A stretch of DNA of 64,000 nucleotides from Patescibacteria group bacterium (lineage in GTDB: Bacteria; Patescibacteriota; Doudnabacteria; UBA920; O2-02-FULL-48-8). Under the pieces are notes generated by a model, which was not told the origin of the DNA, did not search any database, and was given only the letters and a program-made list of their open reading frames with translations. Both the position numbers and the translations under genes were made by a program. Positions 6,388 through 36,367 of the stretch are shown in pieces. Position 1 is the stretch's first letter. Every line of letters begins with the position of its first letter. The stretch lies in assembly GCA_036278915.1 (NCBI GenBank), contig DASUKB010000002.1, forward strand, positions 95,162 to 159,161, given 5' to 3'.

Positions 6388-7557
6388 GTGCATCACAGCG
6401 TGAATGCCCTTACGGTCATCTATTTTATGGCACAAACAGCTACCAGTGTGGCTACTACAATGCAAGAGCTTTTGTCCCAAGAGGGAGTGGACATTAAAGT
6501 TCCCAAAGTCGGCGACGTTTTGGAAGGGAAAATTCTTTCCGTCGGGAAAAACGAGGTTTATATCGATATCGACGGGTTCGGGTTGGGCGTGGTGCGCGGG
6601 CGCGAGCTTTACGACGAAACCGTGAGACTCTCAACTCTTAAAGTCGGCGATATGGTGTTCGCCTCGGTTTTGGAACCGGAAAACAAAGAAGGCAATATTG
6701 AATTGTCGTTCCGCCAAGCCGGCCAGGAACGAGTCTGGCAAACGCTCTCTGACCGCATGCGTTCCCGTGAAGTCATCACGACCAAGATCCTAGACGCCAA
6801 CAAAGGCGGACTTATGGTCGAGGTCAACGGCGTTTTGGGATTCTTACCGGTATCACAACTCTCAAGCGAGCATTATCCGCGAGTGGAAGAAGGCGATAAA
6901 TCCAAAATTCTGGAAATCCTCAAAAGTTATGTTGGTTCCGAATTCGCAGTGCAGATTATTACCGCAGATGCCGAAGAGGAAAAACTGATCGTTTCGGAAA
7001 AAGCCGTAACCGAAGAGGAATTGCGCAGTAAAATTTCCAAACTCAAAATCGGCGACGTCGTGGAAGGCACGGTTTCGGGTATTGTTGACTTCGGCATCTT
7101 TATCAAATTTGGCGATGGACTCGAAGGCTTGGTCCACATTTCCGAACTGGCCTGGTCCCGCATCGAACATCCAAAAGATTTGTACAAAGTTGGTCAGAAA
7201 GTCCAAGCTCAGATTATTTCCGTAGATCGCGACCGAATCTCGCTCTCGGTCAAACGCCTGCAGCCAGACCCTTGGCTTGAATCCATCAAAAAGTACGAAG
7301 TTGGCCAAACCGTCACAGGGAAAGTTACGAAAGTTATGCAGTTTGGAGCGTTCGTGGAACTTGATCCGGATATCTATGGCCTGGTTCACTCTGTGGAGCT
7401 GTCCAATGACGAAGGGAAAAATCCATCGGACATAGTTTCAGTCGGACAGACGTTGGAATTTAAAATTATCTCCATCGAACCCCAGGAACACCGTCTCGGT
7501 CTCTCGCTGCGAGCCCTTACTTCCAAACCAGAAGAGAAAAAAGAAGAAGCCAAATAA
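6388..7557 (+). CDS. rpsA: 30S ribosomal protein S1 (short, four S1 domains)
   Basis: Repeated S1 OB-fold motifs (VGD.VEG.V..I..FG.FV); GTG start with a GAAGG SD; alternative starts at 6427 and 6460 are possible. Confidence 0.85.
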   Translation: MHHSVNALTVIYFMAQTATSVATTMQELLSQEGVDIKVPKVGDVLEGKILSVGKNEVYIDIDGFGLGVVRGRELYDETVRLSTLKVGDMVFASVLEPENKEGNIELSFRQAGQERVWQTLSDRMRSREVITTKILDANKGGLMVEVNGVLGFLPVSQLSSEHYPRVEEGDKSKILEILKSYVGSEFAVQIITADAEEEKLIVSEKAVTEEELRSKISKLKIGDVVEGTVSGIVDFGIFIKFGDGLEGLVHISELAWSRIEHPKDLYKVGQKVQAQIISVDRDRISLSVKRLQPDPWLESIKKYEVGQTVTGKVTKVMQFGAFVELDPDIYGLVHSVELSNDEGKNPSDIVSVGQTLEFKIISIEPQEHRLGLSLRALTSKPEEKKEEAK

Positions 7558-28823: not shown

Positions 28824-30986
28824 ATGGCTCGCAGACGAAACCAAACTCAAACCAGCCAGGTTGCTTTTAAACGGCCGCAGCTCAATCTCAAAAAAGAAAC
28901 GCGAATCGGCGTGGCTGTGGTCTTTTTCATTGTGCTGGCGATTTTGTTTACGCTTAGCTTATTTGGTGCGGCGGGTAAATTCGGCGAAGTAGCCAACGAT
29001 GTGCTCAAACTGGCTTTCGGCTGGGTGGCCTATGTCGTGCCAGTTATATTTTTGATGGTCGCGGTGGCTCTGATGCGCCGCAACGACGAACAGGAAGCCA
29101 ACACGGTTTCGACTCACGCCTATGTCGGCGCCGTACTTTTGACTTTGACTCTGACTGGTTTTTTGCACCTGTTGGTGATCCGGACCAATGTCGACGCGGC
29201 TTTTGATTTGGTGCGTGCCGGCCGCGGCGGCGGTTACCTGGGGGTTCTGACTTCCTACCCGCTTATGCGCGTGGCTGGATTTGTTGCCACACTTGTGATT
29301 TTGGTGGCGGGCATCATTATTAGTTTATTTGTGACATTTAATATTTCTTTCATGTCGCTCTTCCGTAAAAAACCAGCGGGCGAGCAGGCTGGAAAAATTG
29401 CTCCTAAGCCTTTGAAAATCAACAATGCCGCAGTGGCCGGATTTACCAAAGAGCCCGTGGACAGCCGGGCGAACAAACCTTCCGAAGTCGTGGTCAACAC
29501 GCCTTCCGATGACAAGCCTTTGATGAAACTCAACACAAGACCGCCGGCCGCGGACAAGAATTGGAAATTTCCGCCTATAGATTTGTTGGACGATGCCAAA
29601 ACGCGCGTGGATTCCGGCAATATCGAAGCTAATGTTTCGATCATCCAAAAAACTTTGTCGGATTTTGGTATTGAAGTAGAGATGGGCGAGGTCAATGTCG
29701 GCCCGACCGTGACCCAGTACACGCTGCGGCCGGCCACGGGCGTGAAGCTGTCGCAAATCGGCGCGCTCCAAAACGATTTGGCGCTGGCTCTGGCCGCTTC
29801 AAGCATCCGCATGGAGTTGCCAATTCCCGGCAAGGGATTAGTCGGCCTTGAGGTTCCAAACAAGTCCAATGCCACTGTCCGCATCCGCGAGATTATTTCC
29901 TCCTCTGTATTTGCAGAAAGCTCATCGAAACTGGCATATTCGCTTGGCCGCGACGTAGCCGGACATCCCATAATTGCTGATTTGTCCAAAATGCCTCATT
30001 TGCTGATTGCCGGCGCCACGGGCTCGGGCAAATCCGTGGGCGTCAATTCCATGCTTATAAGTTTCCTGTACCGGGCCACGCCCTCGGAAGTGAAAATGAT
30101 TTTGGTGGACCCCAAGCGCGTGGAACTATCCATGTACAACGGTCTGCCGCATTTGCTGACGCCGGTAATCACCGACCATCAGCAAGCCGTAAATGCTTTG
30201 CGCTGGACAGTGCTTGAGATGGATCGCCGCTACAAAATGCTCCAGGAAGTCCATAAGCGCAACATTGGCGAATTCAACCAATCGAGTCTTATAAAGATGC
30301 CGTACTTGGTAGTGGTTGTTGATGAATTGGCGGACCTTATGAGCGTGGCGCAAAACGAAGTTGAGGCAGCCATTGTCCGTCTGGCGCAAATGGCCCGCGC
30401 CGTAGGCATTCATTTGGTGCTGGCCACACAGCGGCCGAGCGTGGACGTCATCACGGGTTTGATTAAAGCCAACATCACCGCGCGCATGGCGTTTGCCGTG
30501 GCATCGCAAGTGGATTCGCGCACTATCTTGGATATGTCGGGCGCGGAAAAATTGCTCGGCCAAGGCGATATGCTCTATATAACTTCCGATCTGCCCAAAC
30601 CCAAGCGCGTGCAGGGTACGTATGTCGGCGAAAAGGAAATCCAAAAAGTTACGGAGTTTATCAAAGAACAAGCCGGGGACGTAATCTACGACGAACAGAT
30701 TTTGGAAAAACCGGCACGTGCAAGCGGCGCACCGGGTTATGATTCGGACGGCGACGAAGATGAATTGATGCAAGAAGCAACACAGATTGTGCAACAAGCC
30801 GGCAAGGCATCGGCATCACTGCTGCAGCGAAGGTTGCGCGTGGGATATGCGCGCGCCGCAAGACTTCTGGATATAATGGAAGAAAAAGGAATTGTCGGTC
30901 CGGCCGACGGCGCCAAACCGCGTGAAGTTTATGGTACTCAAGGTTCCGGCGAGAACGGCGAATCAACTATTGATGATTTCCAGTAA
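28824..30986 (+). CDS. ftsK: DNA translocase FtsK/SpoIIIE
   Basis: N-terminal TM domain, GATGSGKS Walker A, C-terminal gamma (winged-helix) domain. Confidence 0.95.
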   Translation: MARRRNQTQTSQVAFKRPQLNLKKETRIGVAVVFFIVLAILFTLSLFGAAGKFGEVANDVLKLAFGWVAYVVPVIFLMVAVALMRRNDEQEANTVSTHAYVGAVLLTLTLTGFLHLLVIRTNVDAAFDLVRAGRGGGYLGVLTSYPLMRVAGFVATLVILVAGIIISLFVTFNISFMSLFRKKPAGEQAGKIAPKPLKINNAAVAGFTKEPVDSRANKPSEVVVNTPSDDKPLMKLNTRPPAADKNWKFPPIDLLDDAKTRVDSGNIEANVSIIQKTLSDFGIEVEMGEVNVGPTVTQYTLRPATGVKLSQIGALQNDLALALAASSIRMELPIPGKGLVGLEVPNKSNATVRIREIISSSVFAESSSKLAYSLGRDVAGHPIIADLSKMPHLLIAGATGSGKSVGVNSMLISFLYRATPSEVKMILVDPKRVELSMYNGLPHLLTPVITDHQQAVNALRWTVLEMDRRYKMLQEVHKRNIGEFNQSSLIKMPYLVVVVDELADLMSVAQNEVEAAIVRLAQMARAVGIHLVLATQRPSVDVITGLIKANITARMAFAVASQVDSRTILDMSGAEKLLGQGDMLYITSDLPKPKRVQGTYVGEKEIQKVTEFIKEQAGDVIYDEQILEKPARASGAPGYDSDGDEDELMQEATQIVQQAGKASASLLQRRLRVGYARAARLLDIMEEKGIVGPADGAKPREVYGTQGSGENGESTIDDFQ

Positions 30987-31210
30987 GTTGACAACTTGAT
31001 TGCTTGGGTCTAGGATTAATTCACAAGTGAATATCTCAAAGCGGCTCATCCACCTACGCACCACGTGCTTCGGCGGACAAGAAGGCCGCTTTTGTTTATC
31101 CCCACACCTTTCGTCAAGTGGAGGAGTAAGCGCAAAAAAGGTGGGGATTTATGGTATTATGTGAGTATTGAAATTGGACTACCGCAAAAAATGCGGTAGT
31201 CCAAAAAGCA

Positions 31211-32242
31211 ATGTGCAAAAAGTGCAACAATTCAAAATATATGGAAAAACAAGAAAATAAGGGTGAAATCATCATATACAAGTCAGATTCTGGTCCAGAG
31301 CTTCAAATAAAACTGGAGAACGATTCGGTTTGGCTGACACAGGCTCAAATGGCTGAGCTGTTTGATAGGGACAGGGATACTATTTCGGAGCATATTCAGC
31401 ATGTCTATAAAACCGCAGAACTAAGCCCAAATTCAGTTACCCGGAAATTCCGGGTAACTGCCCGTGATGGTAAAAGCTATAATGTTGAGCACTATAATCT
31501 CGATATGATTATCTCGGTGGGTTATCGGGTGAATTCCAAACGTGGCACACAGTTTCGTATCTGGGCAACTAAACACCTTCGTGGTTATTTGCTTAAAGGT
31601 TATTTGATAAACGAGAGAAGGTTGCGGGAAAATCAGGATGCCAAATTAAAAGAATTACAACAAGCACATCTTTTGATTCAACAAGCGCTTGAAAGCAGAC
31701 GGTTGGATGGATTTGAAAAGGAATTGGTTAACATCATCACTGATTATACAAATACCTGGATTGTGCTCAACGAGTACGACAGTGGAAAGCTGAAAATTTC
31801 TGATGTCAGTAAAAACAAGACGAGCTATTTGGATTTTGGAAAGGTCACGGATTCCGTAAGTCGTTTTAAAAACAGACTGCAGGCAAACAAACTGGCAACA
31901 GCTGATTTTGGGAAACCAAATGGAAACAAACTGCAAAAGATCCTGACCCGCGTCAAACAAAATTTGGATGGGGTTGATGTTTATCCTTCAGCCGAAGAAA
32001 AAGGCGCGCACTTATTTTATTTTCTCATTTCAGAAAAACCGTTTGCCGACGGCAATAAACGTATCGCATCTCTAATTTTTATTTTATTCCTCATTGAAAA
32101 TCATTTGTTGTACAACCGCAAAGGCGAGCGCCGCATTAACGATTCAGCATTGGCCGCGCTGGCGTTGCTTGTGGCTGAATCCAAACCGTCGCAGAAGGAT
32201 GTCATGGTAAAATTAATTGTGAATTTGATAAATAAAAAGTAA
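31211..32242 (+). CDS. RhuM-family virulence-like protein fused to a Fic/Doc (death-on-curing) domain with an atypical motif
   Basis: N-terminal WLTQAQMAELF...YNLDMIISVGYRVNSKRGTQFRIWAT (RhuM family); C-terminal KPFADGNKRIA aligns to the Doc HxFx(D/N)GNKR motif but with Lys in place of the catalytic His; low GC (~40%). Confidence 0.7.
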   Translation: MCKKCNNSKYMEKQENKGEIIIYKSDSGPELQIKLENDSVWLTQAQMAELFDRDRDTISEHIQHVYKTAELSPNSVTRKFRVTARDGKSYNVEHYNLDMIISVGYRVNSKRGTQFRIWATKHLRGYLLKGYLINERRLRENQDAKLKELQQAHLLIQQALESRRLDGFEKELVNIITDYTNTWIVLNEYDSGKLKISDVSKNKTSYLDFGKVTDSVSRFKNRLQANKLATADFGKPNGNKLQKILTRVKQNLDGVDVYPSAEEKGAHLFYFLISEKPFADGNKRIASLIFILFLIENHLLYNRKGERRINDSALAALALLVAESKPSQKDVMVKLIVNLINKK

Positions 32243-32260: not shown

Positions 32261-33202
32261 ATGTCGGAACCCTTGTTCAAATCAAAACCAATTAAGATTG
32301 ATACTCTCGGGGCTTATTTAAAACAGCTGCGAGAGAAATTAAATTTGGACATTAAGACTGTCAGTCTTTTGACGCAGATCAAACCCGCGTATTTGGAAAA
32401 TCTTGAATCCGGGAATTATGAAAAATTGCCGGCTGATGTGTATATCCGCGGGTTTATCAAAAATTTATCGCAGCTTTACCGCGTGGAGGAGGAGCCGCTC
32501 GTGGAGCAATTCGAAAAAGAGCACGGCTTTGCCAAAGCTCACAGCGTACGGGCCGCCCTCCACCCGAAACGCGCTTGGTTTACGCCAAGAATGATCATCA
32601 TTTTGAGTTCTGTGGCATTGTTTCTGGCCGGGTTTATATATGTAGCCACGCAGGTGAGCTCGGTTCTGACGCCGCCGAAACTGACCATAGATGAGCCTGC
32701 GGGCGATGAAACTATTACCGGCAACAGCGTGGTTATCTCCGGCAATGCGGAAATCGGATCGGATGTGGCCATAAATGACCAGGCCGTGTTTTTGGATCCC
32801 AATGGCCAGTTCAATGAAAATGTCATTTTAAGCGACGGCATTAACATCATCCAAATCACGGCCAAAAACAGATTCAATAAAGCTACCACAGTCACACGAC
32901 AGATCAATGCTCAAATTCCAACCACGGCGCCGCAGACTCCGGCCAGCCCCGTGAACTTAACTATCGTCATTGGTCCGAATCCGGCCTGGCTTTCTATTGA
33001 GGCCGACGGCGTCACGCTCCAACGCGGGACGATGCTGGCCGGTTCCACAAAAACTATTTCGGCCAATGACGAAATTGTTTTGACTTCTGCCAATGCCGGT
33101 TCAACGCAGGTTCTCTACAACGGCAAAGATTTGGGCAAGCTTGGACGCGAGGGCGAAGTCATCCGCAATGTGGAATTTAATTCTCAGACTGCAAGTCCAT
33201 AA
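32261..33202 (+). CDS. rodZ: RodZ-like cytoskeleton protein (XRE-type HTH, TM, DUF4115)
   Basis: N-terminal HTH (LGAYLKQLREKLNLDIKTVS...), single TM, C-terminal DUF4115-like beta-rich domain. Confidence 0.65.
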   Translation: MSEPLFKSKPIKIDTLGAYLKQLREKLNLDIKTVSLLTQIKPAYLENLESGNYEKLPADVYIRGFIKNLSQLYRVEEEPLVEQFEKEHGFAKAHSVRAALHPKRAWFTPRMIIILSSVALFLAGFIYVATQVSSVLTPPKLTIDEPAGDETITGNSVVISGNAEIGSDVAINDQAVFLDPNGQFNENVILSDGINIIQITAKNRFNKATTVTRQINAQIPTTAPQTPASPVNLTIVIGPNPAWLSIEADGVTLQRGTMLAGSTKTISANDEIVLTSANAGSTQVLYNGKDLGKLGREGEVIRNVEFNSQTASP

Positions 33203-33296: not shown

Positions 33297-34325
33297 ATGA
33301 CCAAGGGCAGCAACAAAATAGAAGCTTCGGGAAATTTGGAGGAGACGCTTGCGTCTATCCGTGACAAATTTGGCGAAGGCGCAATTATGACCTTATCGAA
33401 AGCGCGCTCTATGGATGTCGAGACGATTGCCACCGGATCGATCTCGCTCGACTTGGCTTTGGGAGGCGGCATCCCGCGCGGACGCATTATAGAAATTTTC
33501 GGACCAGAAGGGTCTGGCAAAACAACTTTGGCTATGCACGTTATCGCTGAAATTCAAAAGGACGGCGGCGTGGCCGCGTTCGTGGATGCCGAACACGCGC
33601 TCGATCCGGAACGGGCCAAAGCCGTGGGTGTGAAGATAGATAAACTTTTGATTTCGCAGCCCGACTCCGGCGAGCAAGCCTTGGATATTGTGGAAGCGTT
33701 GGTGCGGTCGAATTCCGTGGACATCATTGTCGTCGATTCGGTGGCCGCGCTCACGCCGCGCGCCGAACTTGAAGGCGAGATGGGCGACTCGCATATGGGG
33801 TTGCACGCGCGATTAATGTCGCAAGCGCTTCGAAAATTGACCAGCATAATTTCCAAATCAAAATCCACGGTAATCTTCATCAACCAGATCCGTATGAAGA
33901 TCGGCGTTATGTTCGGCAACCCCGAAACCACAACCGGCGGCAAGGCCTTGCCGTTCTACACTTCGGTGCGCATCGAAATCCGCCGCCTGGCACAGATTAA
34001 GCAGGGCGAACAGATCGTAGGCAACCGCGTGAAGGCCAAGGTTGTGAAAAATAAGGTGGCGCCGCCGTTCCGGTCCACGGAGTTTGATATTATGTTTTCG
34101 GAAGGCGGCATCTCGTACGCCGGAGACCTGCTCGATACAGCCGCCCGCTACAATATCGTGGCCAAATCGGGGAATACATTCAGTTTTGGTGAAACGAAAC
34201 TCGGAGTGGGCCGTGAAAACGCGAAAAAATACCTACTGGATAACCCAAAGCTAGCAAAAGAGCTAGACAAAGCGGTCCGGCTGAAGTCTAAGACCATAGA
34301 ATTTGGTGAAACTTCCGCGGTGTAA
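33297..34325 (+). CDS. recA: Recombinase RecA
   Basis: GPEGSGKTT Walker A, L1/L2 loop regions, 342 aa. Confidence 0.97.
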
Positions 34326-34361: not shown

Positions 34362-34397
34362 AATTGCTCCTGAAAATTGACAGGAGCAATTTTTTTT
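34362..34397 (+). terminator. Rho-independent terminator of recA (AATTGCTCCTG-loop-CAGGAGCAATT plus T7)
   Basis: 11-bp stem and T-run; the stem also contains the TTGACA of the next promoter. Confidence 0.85.
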
Positions 34398-34405
34398 GCT
34401 ATAAT
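34377..34405 (+). promoter_or_regulatory. Consensus sigma70 promoter TTGACA-17-TATAAT with extended -10 (TGCTATAAT), embedded in the recA terminator
   Basis: Perfect -35 and -10 hexamers, 17-nt spacer; no ORF of 60 aa or more downstream for ~600 nt. Confidence 0.75.
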
Positions 34406-34413
34406 GTCTTCAG

Positions 34414-34895
34414 AACATTAAAAACCGAATATAAATCACTGGCCGAATAAGGATAGGAGAGAATTTTCAGTTCTCAAGCGCACGTTTGTGGGCTGTAAGT
34501 TCTTTCACTATTCGTCATAGCTGTTCTAATCCAGCTGCTTGAAAAACAAAAATAAAAAATCAAAAAGTTTTATATAAACAAACAAAAATAAAACAAAAAG
34601 TTTGAGGTCTCACGACCATAAGAACAGTGATTGAACCAATGCTTATAAAGCGATTAGATATATGAGCAGCAAAAAGGTTTCTGATCTAACATGTTTACCT
34701 CTGTTCCAGGCTTTGGAGCTGAAAGCAACAAAATTTTGCTTTAAGCCCCGTAACCTGAGAACGGAGATAAGCTGAGAACAGAGATCTCCGCAGCGGTATC
34801 ACGCTACATAATTTATATATTGGGCGGTTCGATACCGCTGCTATCCAATTTTACTTAGCAGCCAAATTTACAGTCTTCAACGGAAGGCTTTTTTG
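34414..34895 (+). ncRNA. Candidate non-coding RNA (~480 nt) of unknown class between recA and the dksA-like gene
   Basis: ORF-free 680-bp gap in a compact genome; consensus promoter upstream; 11-bp inverted repeat GCAGCGGTATC...GATACCGCTGC enclosing a T-arm-like GGCGGTTCGATACCGC; weak terminator-like hairpin plus T-run near 34871-34895; class not assignable by eye. Confidence 0.35.
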
Positions 34896-34947
34896 TTTAC
34901 CCAATAAACTCCCTTCTCCTAAATTAGGAGAAGGGTCGGAGATGAGG

Positions 34948-35002: not shown

Positions 35003-35362
35003 ATGATCTCCAAAGAACTAATTGAAGAAAATAAACAAAAATTGCTTGCCGAGCAAAAACAAATTCGCGCTGTGCTAAATCGCGAAGATATCAAAGACGG
35101 CAAGGGTGAGTTTCCCGGCGACTACAAACCAAAATATGATGAGCTTGGAAACGAGGAAGGGGATAACGCTTCCGAAGTTGAAAATTTTAGCAACCAGCTC
35201 GGCGTCACCGAAAGCTTGGAAAGCAAACTCAAGAAAGTCGAATGGGCTTTAGCGCGAATTGAAAATGGCACATACGGCGTATGCGCCGAAGGAGATGAGA
35301 TAGAAGAAGATCGTTTGCGTGCTCTGCCAACAGCCGAGACTTGCGTTAGACACGCGCAGTAA
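35003..35362 (+). CDS. DksA/TraR family C4-type zinc-finger-like protein (degenerate Cys pattern)
   Basis: Coiled-coil N-terminus and C-terminal YGVCAEGDEIEEDRLRALPTAETCVRH resembling the TraR/DksA finger with only two Cys. Confidence 0.6.
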   Translation: MISKELIEENKQKLLAEQKQIRAVLNREDIKDGKGEFPGDYKPKYDELGNEEGDNASEVENFSNQLGVTESLESKLKKVEWALARIENGTYGVCAEGDEIEEDRLRALPTAETCVRHAQ

Positions 35363-36200: not shown

Positions 36201-36367
36201 AGCGGTAGAACAAATGTCTTACCCGCCCGACCGAACGACTTTATGGGCATGTAGCTCAGCGGTAGAGCAAATGTCTTATACACATTGGGTCCCTGGTTCG
36301 AATCCAGGCATGCCCACCATAATTTCAATCAATCGTTCGGTCGTTCGGAATCCTTCCTGGCCCACCA
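36201..36367 (+). other. Composite tRNA-Ile locus: 21-nt 5' fragment homologous to D-loop-to-anticodon of tRNA-Ile (36201-36221), arm CCCGCCCGACCGAACGAC, intact tRNA-Ile(TAT), arm GTCGTTCGGTCG..., 3' fragment TTCGGAATCCTTCCTGGCCCACCA
   Basis: AGCGGTAGAACAAATGTCTTA matches AGCGGTAGAGCAAATGTCTTA within the intact tRNA; arms are mutually complementary; the 5' arm begins CCCGCCCGAC, as at the Arg locus. Confidence 0.6.
36245..36319 (+). tRNA. tRNA-Ile (anticodon TAT)
   Basis: Acceptor GGGCATG/CATGCCC, anticodon loop CTTATAC, T-arm CCTGGTTCGAATCCAGG, CCA encoded. Confidence 0.75.

What the first reader, a model, noticed from the sequence alone, without database searches (positions are those of the whole stretch)
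31211..32242. Low-GC RhuM-family protein fused to a Fic/Doc domain whose catalytic His is replaced by Lys
The N-terminal two-thirds match the RhuM family (WLTQAQMAELF...YNLDMIISVGYRVNSKRGTQFRIWAT). The C-terminus carries a Doc-type motif KPFADGNKRIA where HxFx(D/N)GNKR is expected; the His that acts as catalytic base in Fic/Doc enzymes is Lys here. The gene is ~40% GC and is wedged between ftsK and rodZ-recA, so it is probably acquired. No obvious antitoxin-sized ORF flanks it. It may be an inactive or mechanistically divergent Doc-like toxin or effector, or a decoy.
Basis: partly seen in the sequence, partly recalled or inferred. Interest (0 to 1): 0.55.

Follow-up and report, generated by a model that had tools for sequence, protein, structure and literature searches.

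The report
His-less RhuM–Doc gene before rodZ
This is a real member of the widespread RhuM–Doc toxin-like (candidate phage-defence) family in which the enzyme's key histidine is replaced by lysine; the change is conserved, recurs across the family, and the gene is a long-standing but dispensable first gene of the rodZ–recA operon, not a recent import.

Summary
Window 31211-32242 (+) is an intact ORF; the real start is probably 31241, giving 333 aa. It has a RhuM N-terminal part and a C-terminal Fic/Doc domain. Lys266 (codon 32036-32038) sits exactly where the catalytic His belongs, in S-E-K-P-F-A-D-G-N-K-R. The fusion itself is already known: Anantharaman 2013, BifA, NCBI's "RhuM/Fic/DOC family" name, and an end-to-end match to PADLOC candidate PDC-S23.

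What is less ordinary:
- The Lys/Arg state defines one clade of 8 protein clusters under purifying selection.
- About 8% of family representatives have independently lost the His, mostly to Arg.
- The gene is not a recent insertion. All relatives at 65% identity or more carry it in the same slot, inside rodZ's 5' leader.
- That slot varies in presence/absence between close relatives. The alleles are mosaic and disagree with the core-gene tree.
- Low GC is shared by all orthologs.

Best reading (about 0.5): a kinase-dead or strongly attenuated Doc module that still binds nucleotide or target and so needs no antitoxin. Main rival (about 0.25): a rewired but active site. This is a new variant of a known kind, of moderate interest. 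Separately, a conserved ~480-nt candidate structured ncRNA lies downstream of recA.

The parts
31241..32242 (+). RhuM-Doc coding sequence (333 aa plus stop).
   Evidence: ORF. 100% identical over its full length to the 333-aa NCBI protein P0001, named 'virulence protein RhuM/Fic/DOC family protein'. The start is conserved in orthologs. PADLOC PDC-S23 matches end to end, E = 9e-115.
31310..31576 (+). N-terminal domain (residues ~24-112): beta strands, helices 34-40 and 45-57, a beta hairpin at 67-85, then the RhuM core Y-N-L-D-M-I-I-S-V-G-Y-R-V-N-S-K-R-G-T-Q-F-R-I-W-A-T. It is winged-helix-like. Residues 41-85 (31361-31495) form the swappable cassette.
   Evidence: Pfam RhuM covers 31433-31636. 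AF2 models give pLDDT 80-90 here. Foldseek finds only weak winged-helix matches, E >= 0.13. Cassette types cut across the His versus Lys/Arg alleles.
31538..31780 (+). Two long helices (residues 100-152 and 158-180) that link the N-terminal domain to the Doc domain.
   Evidence: Secondary structure of the AF2 model, pLDDT 60-70. This segment is 77% identical within the Lys/Arg clade.
31826..32239 (+). Doc (Fic-fold) domain, residues 196-333.
   Evidence: Pfam Fic covers 31925-32092. PHROG 577 'Doc-like toxin', E = 1e-11. Foldseek matches P1 Doc 3k33/3dd7/3kh2 with target TM 0.67-0.71 and probability 1.00, and also FICD. pLDDT is 85-94.
32030..32062 (+). Active-site loop S264-E-K-P-F-A-D-G-N-K-R274. 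Lys266 (AAA, 32036-32038) replaces the catalytic His.
30988..31016 (+). Conserved promoter-like element, TTGACA-N17-TAGGAT, immediately after the ftsK stop.
   Evidence: Consensus scan, 10 of 12 matches. Conserved in L001, L002, L005, L007 and L008. Also present in L113, which lacks the gene.
31038..31097 (+). Conserved GC hairpin (AAAGCGGC...GCCGCTTT) followed by a T-run. In the window its loop is enlarged, and a window-specific hairpin follows at 31098-31148.
31152..31160 (+). Extended -10 element, TGGTATTAT. This is rodZ's own promoter element, and in L113 it lies about 12 nt before the rodZ ATG.
31174..31204 (+). Perfect 13-bp inverted repeat in the 5' leader of the gene. Orthologs carry different palindromes at the same place.
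32261..33202 (+). rodZ (HTH_25 + RodZ_C), the second cistron. It starts 18 nt after the RhuM-Doc stop codon. In orthologs the gap ranges from a 1-nt overlap (TAATG) to 12 nt.
33297..34325 (+). recA, downstream in the same orientation.
28824..30986 (+). ftsK, the upstream boundary of the slot.

Best explanation
The ORF encodes a genuine single-polypeptide RhuM-Doc protein of the family PADLOC lists as defence candidate PDC-S23. It has a winged-helix-like N-terminal RhuM module, a long helical linker and a C-terminal Doc (Fic-fold) domain.

In a Doudnabacteria-like Patescibacteria lineage this gene sits inside the 5' leader of rodZ. It is expressed from rodZ's own promoter as the first cistron of a rodZ(-recA) operon.

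Within that lineage one allele group, which includes this window, lost the catalytic His of the Doc motif. The likely order was to Arg first and then to Lys. The phosphate-binding loop P-F-x-D-G-N-K-R was kept, and the group acquired seven further clade-specific substitutions, all in the Doc domain.

My best reading is that this Doc module can no longer carry out, or carries out only very poorly, the His-dependent phosphoryl transfer that makes Doc toxic. It would still bind nucleotide and/or its protein target. That would make the protein a detoxified, ligand-binding version of a toxin-type conflict gene. Such a protein needs no antitoxin and can sit in a housekeeping operon. Its specificity would be set by the recombining N-terminal cassette.

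Shown: family identity, the substitution, the operon position, purifying selection, the mosaic alleles and the recurrence of His loss.
Inferred: loss of catalysis, retained binding and DNA binding by the N-terminal domain.
For: Identity:
- Pfam RhuM and Fic are both above threshold.
- PDC-S23 matches end to end at E = 9e-115. PHROG 'Doc-like toxin' also matches.
- The fold matches P1 Doc and FICD.
- At least 8000 word-indexed homologs and 25175 representative hits.

His is needed in characterised relatives:
- BifA, a RhuM-Fic protein, loses all measured activities with H247A (PMC6529018).
- The P1 Doc structure 3dd7 is of the H66Y mutant.

The substitution is real and belongs to a clade:
- 8 of the top 120 homologs are Lys/Arg and form one clade, with a His-type protein as sister.
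- Codons are CAT (His), CGG (Arg) and AAA (Lys).

The domain is not decaying:
- Synonymous sites are saturated (pS 0.67-0.9), while Doc-domain dN is only 0.13-0.30.
- Whole-gene dN (0.14-0.16) lies between FtsK (0.11-0.12) and RodZ (0.17-0.20).
- F/Y-x-D-G-N-K-R is kept in 8 of 8 clade members.

Functional shift:
- All 8 clade-specific changes (K204D, L222D/S/E, V227x, G236x, L259F, K264x, H266K/R, K298R) lie in the Doc domain.
- Doc identity is 0.58 between clades and 0.70-0.74 within them.

His loss is recurrent and tolerated:
- 10 of about 131 representatives have Arg.
- At least 7 separate His-less positions appear on the family tree, with Lys, Arg or Gln.
- Some His-less lineages show further motif decay (AGNKQ, AGNQQ), as expected if catalysis is gone.

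Context fits detoxification:
- The window lineage sits in the rodZ leader.
- Other His-less members sit next to hisS-dprA-topA-relA, between queH and a Mur ligase, or after an EngB-like GTPase.
- Sampled His-type members lie next to a Type I R-M S subunit, a PD-(D/E)XK nuclease, an integrase and a KAP NTPase.

Precedent: FIC domains with non-canonical motifs that bind targets without detectable catalysis, such as BepC (PMC8401265).
Against: - No biochemical data exist for any His-less Doc.
- Keeping D-G-N-K-R intact through about 33% sequence divergence, and in several independent lineages, is more than a pure scaffold would need. It would also fit an active enzyme.
- The replacements seen (Arg, Lys, Gln) are residues that can stabilise a transferring phosphoryl group. 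In the unbiased sets Glu at -1 was found only with non-His residues. This hints at a compensating rearrangement and not at simple loss.
- The contrast between housekeeping and defence contexts rests on small samples. Two His-less members lie in conjugative-element contexts (TraU/TraG).
- His-type alleles occupy the same rodZ-leader slot (L007-L009). Detoxification is therefore not required for residence there.
- DNA binding by the N-terminal domain rests only on weak fold matches.
Confidence: 0.5

Rival explanations
1. Rewired but active enzyme. The Doc domain still transfers a phosphoryl (or other) group. Lys/Arg/Gln at the former His position would stabilise the transition state. Another residue, with Glu265 at -1 as the obvious candidate, would act as general base. 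The target or the chemistry may have changed.
For: - The rest of the motif is strictly kept in 8 of 8 clade members and in independent His-less lineages.
- The Doc domain is under strong purifying selection.
- Clade-specific substitutions are concentrated in the Doc domain and suggest a remodelled pocket.
- In the top 120 homologs, Glu at -1 occurs in 7 of 8 Lys/Arg proteins and in none of 112 His proteins.
- In the representative set, Glu at -1 occurs only with non-His residues.
- 'KEH' forms neighbour KER/KEK and KEQ forms on the tree and could be intermediates.
Against: - Most independent His-less representatives are K-D-R, with no Glu at -1. The Glu link is therefore not general.
- Arg and Gln are poor general bases.
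- Every tested Fic/Doc protein loses activity when the His is mutated (PMC6529018; the DocH66Y entry).
- Some His-less lineages go on to lose other motif residues.
Confidence: 0.25
2. Dominant-negative or decoy allele. The His-less protein keeps its dimerisation and target-binding surfaces and neutralises active RhuM-Doc toxins from invading elements or sister alleles. Or it shields the target, acting as an immunity factor and not as an effector.
For: - His-type and Arg-type alleles occur at the same locus in sister genomes from one metagenome assembly (L007 and L001, GCA_034680565.1).
- The His-less allele is incongruent with the core tree, so it has spread by exchange.
- Long helices could mediate oligomerisation.
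- RhuM N-domains occur in phages and satellites.
Against: - There is no second RhuM-Doc copy in the 64-kb window.
- There is no evidence of oligomerisation.
- No genome was shown to carry both allele types.
- The idea is untested and rests on analogy.
Confidence: 0.1
3. Recently acquired toxin or effector island. The low-GC gene would have been inserted recently between ftsK and rodZ by horizontal transfer and would act as a stand-alone toxin.
For: - GC is 0.40 against about 0.50 in the flanks.
- The family at large is patchily distributed across phyla, often next to mobile or defence genes.
- The slot shows presence/absence variation and variable cargo: a PIF1 helicase, a PDDEXK_3 protein and a 192-aa ORF.
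Against: - The same slot is occupied in all 10 loci whose protein is 65% identical or more, while the core proteins have diverged to 54-89% identity.
- All orthologs share the low GC.
- dN is comparable to that of core genes, with saturated dS.
- The stop codon is fused to the rodZ start, and the gene uses rodZ's promoter.
Confidence: 0.05
4. Decaying relic. The gene would be a toxin inactivated by the His mutation and now drifting toward loss.
For: - One close relative has a frameshifted copy (L111) and two lack the gene (L112, L113).
- Some His-less representatives elsewhere have degraded motifs.
Against: - Intact ORFs are kept across a clade that has diverged to about 67% identity.
- Synonymous sites are saturated while dN stays low.
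- Doc-domain conservation inside the clade (0.70) equals that of the His-type proteins (0.68-0.74).
Confidence: 0.05

Closest known systems
RhuM-Doc fusion proteins: NCBI 'virulence protein RhuM/Fic/DOC family protein', the PADLOC candidate system PDC-S23, and the fusion noted by Anantharaman et al. 2013 (PMC3710099)
   Same: - Same domain order and length (about 330 aa).
- End-to-end HMM match at E = 9e-115.
- Same RhuM core motif and the same Doc-type G-N-K-R loop.
- No adjacent antitoxin-like gene.
   Different: - The catalytic His is Lys (Arg in sister alleles). About 88-93% of family members keep His.
- Seven further clade-specific changes lie in the Doc domain.
- The gene sits at a fixed position in the rodZ leader, not in R-M, mobile or defence contexts.
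BifA of Streptococcus equi subsp. zooepidemicus, a RhuM + Fic protein (PMC6529018)
   Same: [quoted passage not shown] It is also low in GC relative to its genome.
   Different: - BifA has the His, and H247A abolishes its activities.
- It is described as a secreted virulence factor acting on host moesin.
- I did not compare the two sequences directly.
Phage P1 Doc toxin of the Phd-Doc type II toxin-antitoxin system
   Same: - Same fold (Foldseek target TM 0.67-0.71).
- Same Doc-type motif ending in N-K-R.
- PHROG 'Doc-like toxin' matches.
   Different: - No Phd antitoxin gene.
- The protein carries about 195 extra N-terminal residues.
- The His equivalent to Doc His66 is Lys.
- TIGR01550 DOC_P1 scores 23.9 bits, below its cut-off of 38.65.
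FIC domains with non-canonical motifs, such as Bartonella BepC and Bep8 (PMC8401265)
   Same: The Fic fold is kept while the signature motif departs from the consensus. At least one (BepC) binds a target with no detectable enzymatic activity.
   Different: - In the passages I read, the departures from the consensus lie elsewhere in the motif (BepC's non-canonical motif; a Glu at the second Gly position in Bep8). In BepC the catalytic His (H146) is present. Here only the His is replaced, and the Doc-type phosphate loop is intact.
- The biology also differs: type IV-secreted host-targeted effectors there, a cytoplasmic protein of an uncultured Patescibacterium here.

Membership tests
RhuM family (Pfam PF13310) | The profile HMM score exceeds the gathering threshold. 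| tested here: met
   90 bits against a cut-off of 33.7, E = 2e-25. Only profile positions 1-71 of 252 are matched. The PADLOC RhuM-like PDC-S05 models match residues ~16-150/220.
RhuM family (Pfam PF13310) | The conserved core Y-N-L-D-x-I-I-S-V-G-Y-R-V-N-S-x-x-G/A-T-Q-F-R-I-W-A-T is present. | tested here: met
   It is present, and these columns are invariant or nearly so across 120 homologs.
Fic/Doc superfamily (Pfam PF02661) | The profile HMM score exceeds the gathering threshold, and the protein has the Fic fold. | tested here: met
   30.9 bits against a cut-off of 24. Foldseek matches FICD (probability 0.99) and P1 Doc (target TM 0.67-0.71).
Fic/Doc superfamily (Pfam PF02661) | The catalytic His is the first residue of the signature motif H-x-F-x-(D/E/N)-(G/A)-N-(G/K)-R. 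| tested here: not met
   Lys266 occupies that column in pairwise and profile alignments and against 112 His-bearing homologs.
Fic/Doc superfamily (Pfam PF02661) | The remainder of the signature motif, x-F-x-D-G-N-K-R (the Doc-type phosphate-binding loop), is present. | tested here: met
   P-F-A-D-G-N-K-R. D270, G271, N272, K273 and R274 are invariant across 120 sequences.
Phd-Doc type II toxin-antitoxin system (TIGR01550 DOC_P1) | The subfamily HMM score exceeds the curated cut-off. | tested here: not met
   23.9 bits against a cut-off of 38.65.
Phd-Doc type II toxin-antitoxin system (TIGR01550 DOC_P1) | A small antitoxin gene (Phd/YefM type) lies adjacent. | tested here: not met
   The three small ORFs flanking the start have no Pfam hit at E <= 0.1. 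The upstream region is not conserved as coding sequence. The orthologous loci show no such gene.
Phd-Doc type II toxin-antitoxin system (TIGR01550 DOC_P1) | Kinase activity on EF-Tu and toxicity. | not testable with these tools
   This needs expression and biochemical assays.
PADLOC PDC-S23 (candidate phage-defence system) | A full-length match to the PDC-S23 protein models. | tested here: met
   PDLC04965 at E = 8.8e-115, covering residues 16-342 against profile positions 3-325 of 327. Two further PDC-S23 models match at about 1e-105.
PADLOC PDC-S23 (candidate phage-defence system) | The gene lies in defence islands or protects against phage. | tested here: not met
   In this lineage the neighbours are IF2, RbfA, a DHH protein, FtsK, RodZ, RecA, LspA and LexA. 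Some His-type members elsewhere do sit next to R-M or nuclease genes. Protection itself cannot be tested here.

The most novel reading that the evidence does not exclude
The recurrent His-less form of the Doc domain (Arg/Lys/Gln at the His position, often with Glu just before it, and the D-G-N-K-R phosphate loop intact) could be an alternative working active site and not a dead one. It would be a Fic-fold enzyme that does phosphoryl-transfer chemistry without the universal catalytic His. Alternatively, it could be a nucleotide-gated binding switch. In Doudnabacteria it would have been recruited as the first cistron of the rodZ-recA operon, with alleles exchanged between lineages.
Probability: 0.25. 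Interest if true: 0.65.

Novelty: new variant of a known kind. Interest (0 to 1): 0.38.

Why it matters
Every Fic/Doc enzyme characterised so far, to my knowledge, depends on the motif His.

Here there is a clade, and roughly 8% of a very large family, that has replaced only that residue. These proteins keep the rest of the nucleotide pocket under purifying selection. That makes them a natural experiment on what a Fic fold does without its catalytic base. Either it becomes a pseudo-enzyme that works by binding, or it uses a different catalytic arrangement.

The locus also shows how a toxin-type, defence-associated gene can live stably inside a housekeeping operon of a reduced-genome Patescibacterium without an antitoxin. 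At the same time it still behaves like a conflict gene: presence/absence varies, the N-terminal module is swapped in cassettes, and alleles are exchanged between lineages.

The practical value is modest. It offers testable constructs (wild type, K266H, E265Q) for groups working on Fic/Doc mechanism or on the PADLOC candidate PDC-S23.

Tried and rejected
- **Mis-registration of the His.** Rejected by three independent alignments.
- **Recent horizontal acquisition.** Rejected by synteny, by core-like divergence and by the low GC shared among orthologs.
- **Hidden antitoxin.** The small flanking ORFs have no family match and are not conserved.
- **Glu at -1 as an obligatory partner of His loss.** The window clade and my metagenome pattern suggested it, but that pattern required Glu by design. 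The unbiased representative set shows that most Arg variants keep Asp or Asn at -1. I downgraded this to a hint.
- **Autoregulation through the leader palindromes.** The palindrome type does not track the N-terminal cassette type. For example, the window and L007 share cassette A but have different palindromes, and L005 has none. I did not pursue this.
- **A known RNA in the upstream leader or downstream of recA.** No Rfam match at either the gathering or the E-value threshold.
- **A link to DinD.** I considered this because a paper mentions dinD and RhuM domains together. The NCBIfam scan reported only TIGR01550 at E <= 1, so I dropped it.
- **Literature.** 'PDC-S23' returned no paper. I found no paper describing His-less Doc or RhuM-Doc variants.
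- **Paralogs.** There are none in the window.
Full report
**1. The observation**

Window 31211-32242 (+) is an uninterrupted 343-codon ORF.
- Pfam places Virulence_RhuM (PF13310; 90 bits, threshold 33.7) on residues 75-142. It places Fic/DOC (PF02661; 30.9 bits, threshold 24) on residues 239-294.
- NCBIfam's P1-Doc subfamily model TIGR01550 scores 23.9 bits, below its cut-off of 38.65.
- PHROG 577 'Doc-like toxin' matches at 1e-11.
- The sequence S-E-K-P-F-A-D-G-N-K-R lies at 32030-32062, with the Lys codon AAA at 32036-32038.
- The Lys aligns with the motif His of the solved Doc-family protein 9vzc.
- In a profile built from 120 homologs, the same column aligns with the His of 9vzc and of SoFic HPFIDGNGR.
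- 112 of the 120 closest homologs read K-(D/N)-H-P-F-x-D-G-N-K-R at this place.

The His-to-Lys reading is therefore correct in register. It is not a sequencing error: independent assemblies show Lys or Arg, and AAA differs from CAT at two positions.

The gene's GC is 0.403, against 0.475 for the window and 0.49-0.53 for its neighbours.

One correction concerns the start. The conserved start is ATG 31241 (MEKQENKGE...). It matches every ortholog and the 333-aa NCBI protein P0001. I number residues from that start below.

**2. What it is**

The architecture is not new.
- PADLOC's candidate defence system PDC-S23 matches end to end (E = 9e-115).
- NCBI names the identical protein 'virulence protein RhuM/Fic/DOC family protein'.
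- Anantharaman et al. [quoted passage not shown]
- BifA of S. equi subsp. zooepidemicus is a RhuM + Fic protein whose activities are lost with H247A (PMC6529018).
- The family is very large. The word-indexed search returned at least 8000 hits. The 50%-identity representative library returned 25175 hits at E <= 1e-3 and 1013 at E <= 1e-30.

An AlphaFold model built on the 120-sequence alignment has a mean pLDDT of 76, and 85-94 in the C-terminal domain. It shows these parts:
- a small alpha/beta N-terminal domain (residues ~24-112)
- two long helices (100-152 and 158-180)
- a helical C-terminal domain (196-333)

Foldseek matches the model to FICD and to phage P1 Doc (target TM 0.67-0.71). The N-terminal domain modelled alone gives only non-significant matches (E >= 0.13), the better ones to winged-helix DNA-binding domains. 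I call it winged-helix-like, not established.

**3. The His-less state belongs to a clade and also recurs across the family**

Among the 120 closest homologs, four have Lys and four have Arg. One of the Arg proteins also has F to Y.
- The eight form a single clade in a neighbour-joining tree, with a His-type protein (P0014) as sister.
- Codons are CAT (His), CGG (Arg) and AAA (Lys).
- All eight keep (F/Y)-x-D-G-N-K-R.

I compared the clade with the 112 His-type sequences. Eight positions are conserved at 85% or more in the His-type proteins and are changed in the clade: K204D, L222D/S/E, V227x, G236x, L259F, K264x, H266K/R and K298R. All eight lie in the Doc domain.

Doc-domain identity is 0.58 between the two groups. 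It is 0.70 inside the Lys/Arg clade and 0.68-0.74 inside the His group.

Pairwise Nei-Gojobori estimates show synonymous sites saturated (pS 0.67-0.9). Doc-domain dN is 0.13-0.30. Whole-gene dN (0.14-0.16) falls between FtsK (0.11-0.12) and RodZ (0.17-0.20).

The pattern is a burst of change in the Doc domain followed by purifying selection. It is not decay.

Loss of the His is not limited to this clade.
- I scanned the metagenome collection with a degenerate pattern for E-[K/R/H/Q/N/S]-P-[F/Y]-x-D-G-N-K-R-I. It found full-length RhuM-Doc genes at 29-46% identity to the query carrying KEQ, KER, VER or KEK.
- On a 96-protein tree these fall at seven or more separate positions, each nested among His-type relatives. 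'KEH' forms are neighbours in two places.
- That pattern required Glu at -1, so I also used an unbiased sample, the best 150 representatives at 50% identity. Of about 131 with a residue in the column, 115 have His and 10 have Arg, mostly K-D-R-P-F-x-D-G-N-K-R. Only the query has Lys. A few His-less proteins show further motif decay, for example KDRPFIAGNKQ and KDLPFEAGNQQ.
- All 80 loci drawn from species-representative genomes have His.

His-less RhuM-Doc is therefore a recurrent minority form, roughly 8% of clusters. Arg is the usual replacement and Lys is rare. Glu at -1 is enriched among His-less proteins but is not obligatory.

**4. Genomic setting: not a recent insertion but still an accessory gene**

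Exact-protein look-ups place every homolog at 65% identity or more in the same slot: IF2-RbfA-DHH-FtsK-[X]-RodZ-RecA...LspA-LexA.
- Lys/Arg-type: P0002, P0003, P0004, P0011.
- His-type: P0008, P0012, P0014.
- None of the 80 genome-collection loci at 58% identity or less, from many phyla, has FtsK, RodZ or RecA nearby.
- RodZ homologs identify the lineage as Candidatus Doudnabacteria-like. Many of them sit on contigs of the same lengths as RhuM-Doc hits.
- All orthologs are GC-poor: 0.37-0.44, against 0.42-0.54 for their flanking genes.

Low GC is therefore a lasting property of the gene and not a sign of recent arrival.

The intergenic region upstream holds conserved elements:
- TTGACA-N17-TAGGAT at 30988-31016
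- a GC hairpin with a T-run at 31038-31097
- an extended -10 element, TGGTATTAT, at 31152-31160

Locus L113 lacks the gene but carries the same three elements directly in front of the rodZ ATG. These are therefore rodZ's own expression signals, and the RhuM-Doc cassette sits between them and rodZ.

The stop codon of the gene abuts or overlaps the rodZ start. It reads TAATG in L001 and L007, and the gap is 0-12 nt in the other orthologs and 18 nt in the window. The gene is thus the first cistron of a rodZ(-recA) operon. I infer this from the sequence layout and did not measure transcription.

The slot is polymorphic.
- Among close relatives by RodZ identity (68-73%), L112 and L113 have FtsK followed directly by RodZ.
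- L111 has a PIF1-like helicase upstream and a Lys-type copy (TDKPF) broken by one frameshift near residue 195.
- Other loci carry different extra ORFs between ftsK and the gene: a PDDEXK_3 protein and a 96-aa ORF in L009, and a 192-aa ORF in L002.

The gene tree disagrees with the core tree. L001 and L007 are sisters by FtsK (87%), DHH (86%) and RodZ (77%). Yet L001 carries an Arg-type allele that groups with the window clade (74-75%), while L007's His-type allele groups with L008's (81%). Both contigs come from one metagenome assembly.

The alleles are also mosaic. Residues 41-85, the putative recognition helix and wing, occur in at least three or four cassette types that cut across the split between His and Lys/Arg. 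The window, P0002 and P0004 share their cassette with the His-type P0008 and P0006 at 87-96% identity. P0007, P0011 and L111 carry a different cassette.

Taken together, the gene is dispensable, recombines, and is exchanged between lineages at a fixed address.

**5. Context elsewhere in the family**

The samples here are small.
- His-type members lie next to a Type I R-M specificity subunit and a PD-(D/E)XK nuclease (L039), a phage-type integrase (L071), a KAP NTPase (L022) and a Cas4-like protein (L028).
- Some His-less members lie tightly among housekeeping genes. L091 is 3 nt upstream of hisS-dprA-topA-relA. L101 is between queH and a Mur ligase. L094 follows an EngB-like GTPase.
- Other His-less members lie near TraU or TraG (L104, L108).
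- The RhuM N-terminal domain alone occurs in Streptococcus satellite phages and in Wolbachia phage WO.

**6. How it most likely works**

Established knowledge, cited from memory:
- P1 Doc phosphorylates EF-Tu using the Fic-fold motif H-x-F-x-(D/N)-(A/G)-N-K-R (Castro-Roa et al. 2013; Cruz et al. 2014, which is reference 31 of PMC6529018).
- The His acts as the catalytic base.
- H66Y is the non-toxic mutant that was used for the 3dd7 structure. The entry appears.

Taking this together with the BifA H247A result, I think the most probable reading (about 0.5) is as follows.
- The Lys/Arg-type Doc module has lost, or nearly lost, phosphoryl-transfer activity.
- It keeps the phosphate-binding loop and therefore still binds nucleotide and/or its target.
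- This explains four things: why no antitoxin is needed, why the allele persists under purifying selection, why some His-less lineages later lose more of the motif, and why such genes can sit in housekeeping operons.
- FIC domains that bind a target without detectable catalysis have precedent (BepC; PMC8401265).
- The swappable N-terminal cassette would supply specificity. Whether that is for DNA or for another ligand is unknown.

The main rival (about 0.25) is a rewired active site. The evidence in its favour:
- D-G-N-K-R is retained strictly.
- The replacements are limited to Arg, Lys and Gln.
- Glu is enriched at -1.
- The clade-specific changes are concentrated in the Doc domain.

The evidence against it:
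- K-D-R forms without Glu predominate among independent His-less lineages.
- Arg and Gln are poor bases.

A dominant-negative or decoy role (about 0.1) is suggested only by the presence of His-type and Arg-type alleles in sister populations of one sample. Recent acquisition and neutral decay (about 0.05 each) are largely excluded by sections 3 and 4.

**7. Comparison with what is known, and novelty**

The protein is a member of the RhuM family, of the Fic/Doc superfamily by profile and by fold, and of the RhuM-Doc/PDC-S23 architecture.

It fails one defining feature of catalytically competent Fic/Doc proteins, the His. It also fails the features that define a Phd-Doc toxin-antitoxin pair: the subfamily score and an adjacent antitoxin.

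I found no description in the searchable literature of any of the following:
- a conserved His-less allele group
- recurrence of His loss across the family
- residence of the gene in the rodZ leader
- presence/absence variation and cassette mosaicism at that locus

I rate this a new variant of a known kind. Interest is moderate (0.38). A Fic/Doc specialist would want to know what a Fic fold does without its His. On the other hand, degenerate FIC motifs are not unheard of, and this analysis provides no functional evidence.

**8. Noticed in passing**

A conserved non-coding element lies downstream of recA, from about 34406 to 34898.
- It has a perfect consensus promoter at 34377-34405 and a terminator-like end at 34882-34898.
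- It contains long invariant blocks and is conserved in eight related loci.
- RNAalifold predicts 102 pairs, 36 of them with compensatory changes.
- It has no Rfam family, and ARAGORN finds no tmRNA.

It looks like an undescribed structured RNA of this lineage and deserves its own follow-up.

Noticed in passing
window 34377-34898 (+), between recA and the DksA-like gene at 35003-35362: A candidate new structured ncRNA of about 480 nt. It has a perfect TTGACA-17-TATAAT promoter with an upstream TG at 34377-34405 and a terminator-like end at 34882-34898. It contains long invariant blocks, for example CACTATTCGTCATAGCTGTTCTAATCCAGCTG at 34506-34537, and is conserved in L001, L002, L005, L008, L009, L111 and L113. 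RNAalifold predicts 102 pairs, 36 with compensatory changes. There is no Rfam match and no tmRNA call.
   Followed up: partly
L111:4092-5765, L009:5095-5937, L002:3284-3862 (the space between ftsK and the RhuM-Doc gene in orthologous loci): The space between ftsK and the RhuM-Doc gene carries different extra genes in different relatives: a PIF1-like helicase (L111), a 96-aa ORF plus a PDDEXK_3 protein (L009), and a 192-aa ORF with no Pfam family above its threshold (only a weak Rer1 hit, E = 0.039) (L002). The window has none. This suggests a small hotspot for variable cargo.
   Followed up: partly
window 31047-31148: Relative to all orthologs, the window has about 100 extra bases in the rodZ/RhuM-Doc leader. 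The conserved GC hairpin has an enlarged loop, and a second hairpin (ATCCCCACACCTTT...AAAGGTGGGGAT, 31098-31148) is absent elsewhere.
   Followed up: no
window 31174-31204 and 31212-31226; L002, L007 and L008 leaders: The 5' leaders of the gene hold perfect palindromes that differ between orthologs. The window has TTGGACTACCGCA/TGCGGTAGTCCAA. L002, L007 and L008 have AACTATTCGGAA/TTCCGAATAGTT and GTTATTCGGAAATTCCGAATAAC. L005 has none. They do not track the N-terminal cassette type. They could be RNA hairpins, operators or small repeat elements.
   Followed up: partly
L001 and L007 (both from assembly GCA_034680565.1): Two sister genomes by core genes, recovered from the same metagenome assembly, carry different alleles at the same locus: Arg-type in L001 and His-type in L007. 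This implies allele exchange or a long-lived polymorphism.
   Followed up: partly
window 36245-36319 (+): ARAGORN calls a tRNA-Ile with anticodon TAT (UAU). From memory, that anticodon is uncommon in bacteria, which usually read AUA with a lysidine-modified CAU tRNA.
   Followed up: no
L113:4732-6894: In this relative, which lacks the RhuM-Doc gene, ftsK is called as two ORFs of 470 and 245 aa. This is either a frameshift or an assembly error.
   Followed up: no
window 30988-31097; L113:~6895-7000: The conserved TTGACA-N17-TA(G/A)GAT element is followed within about 20 nt by a conserved terminator-like hairpin, and only then by the extended -10 that precedes rodZ or the RhuM-Doc gene. A promoter directly followed by a terminator could mean a very short transcript or an attenuator. 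It is unexplained.
   Followed up: no
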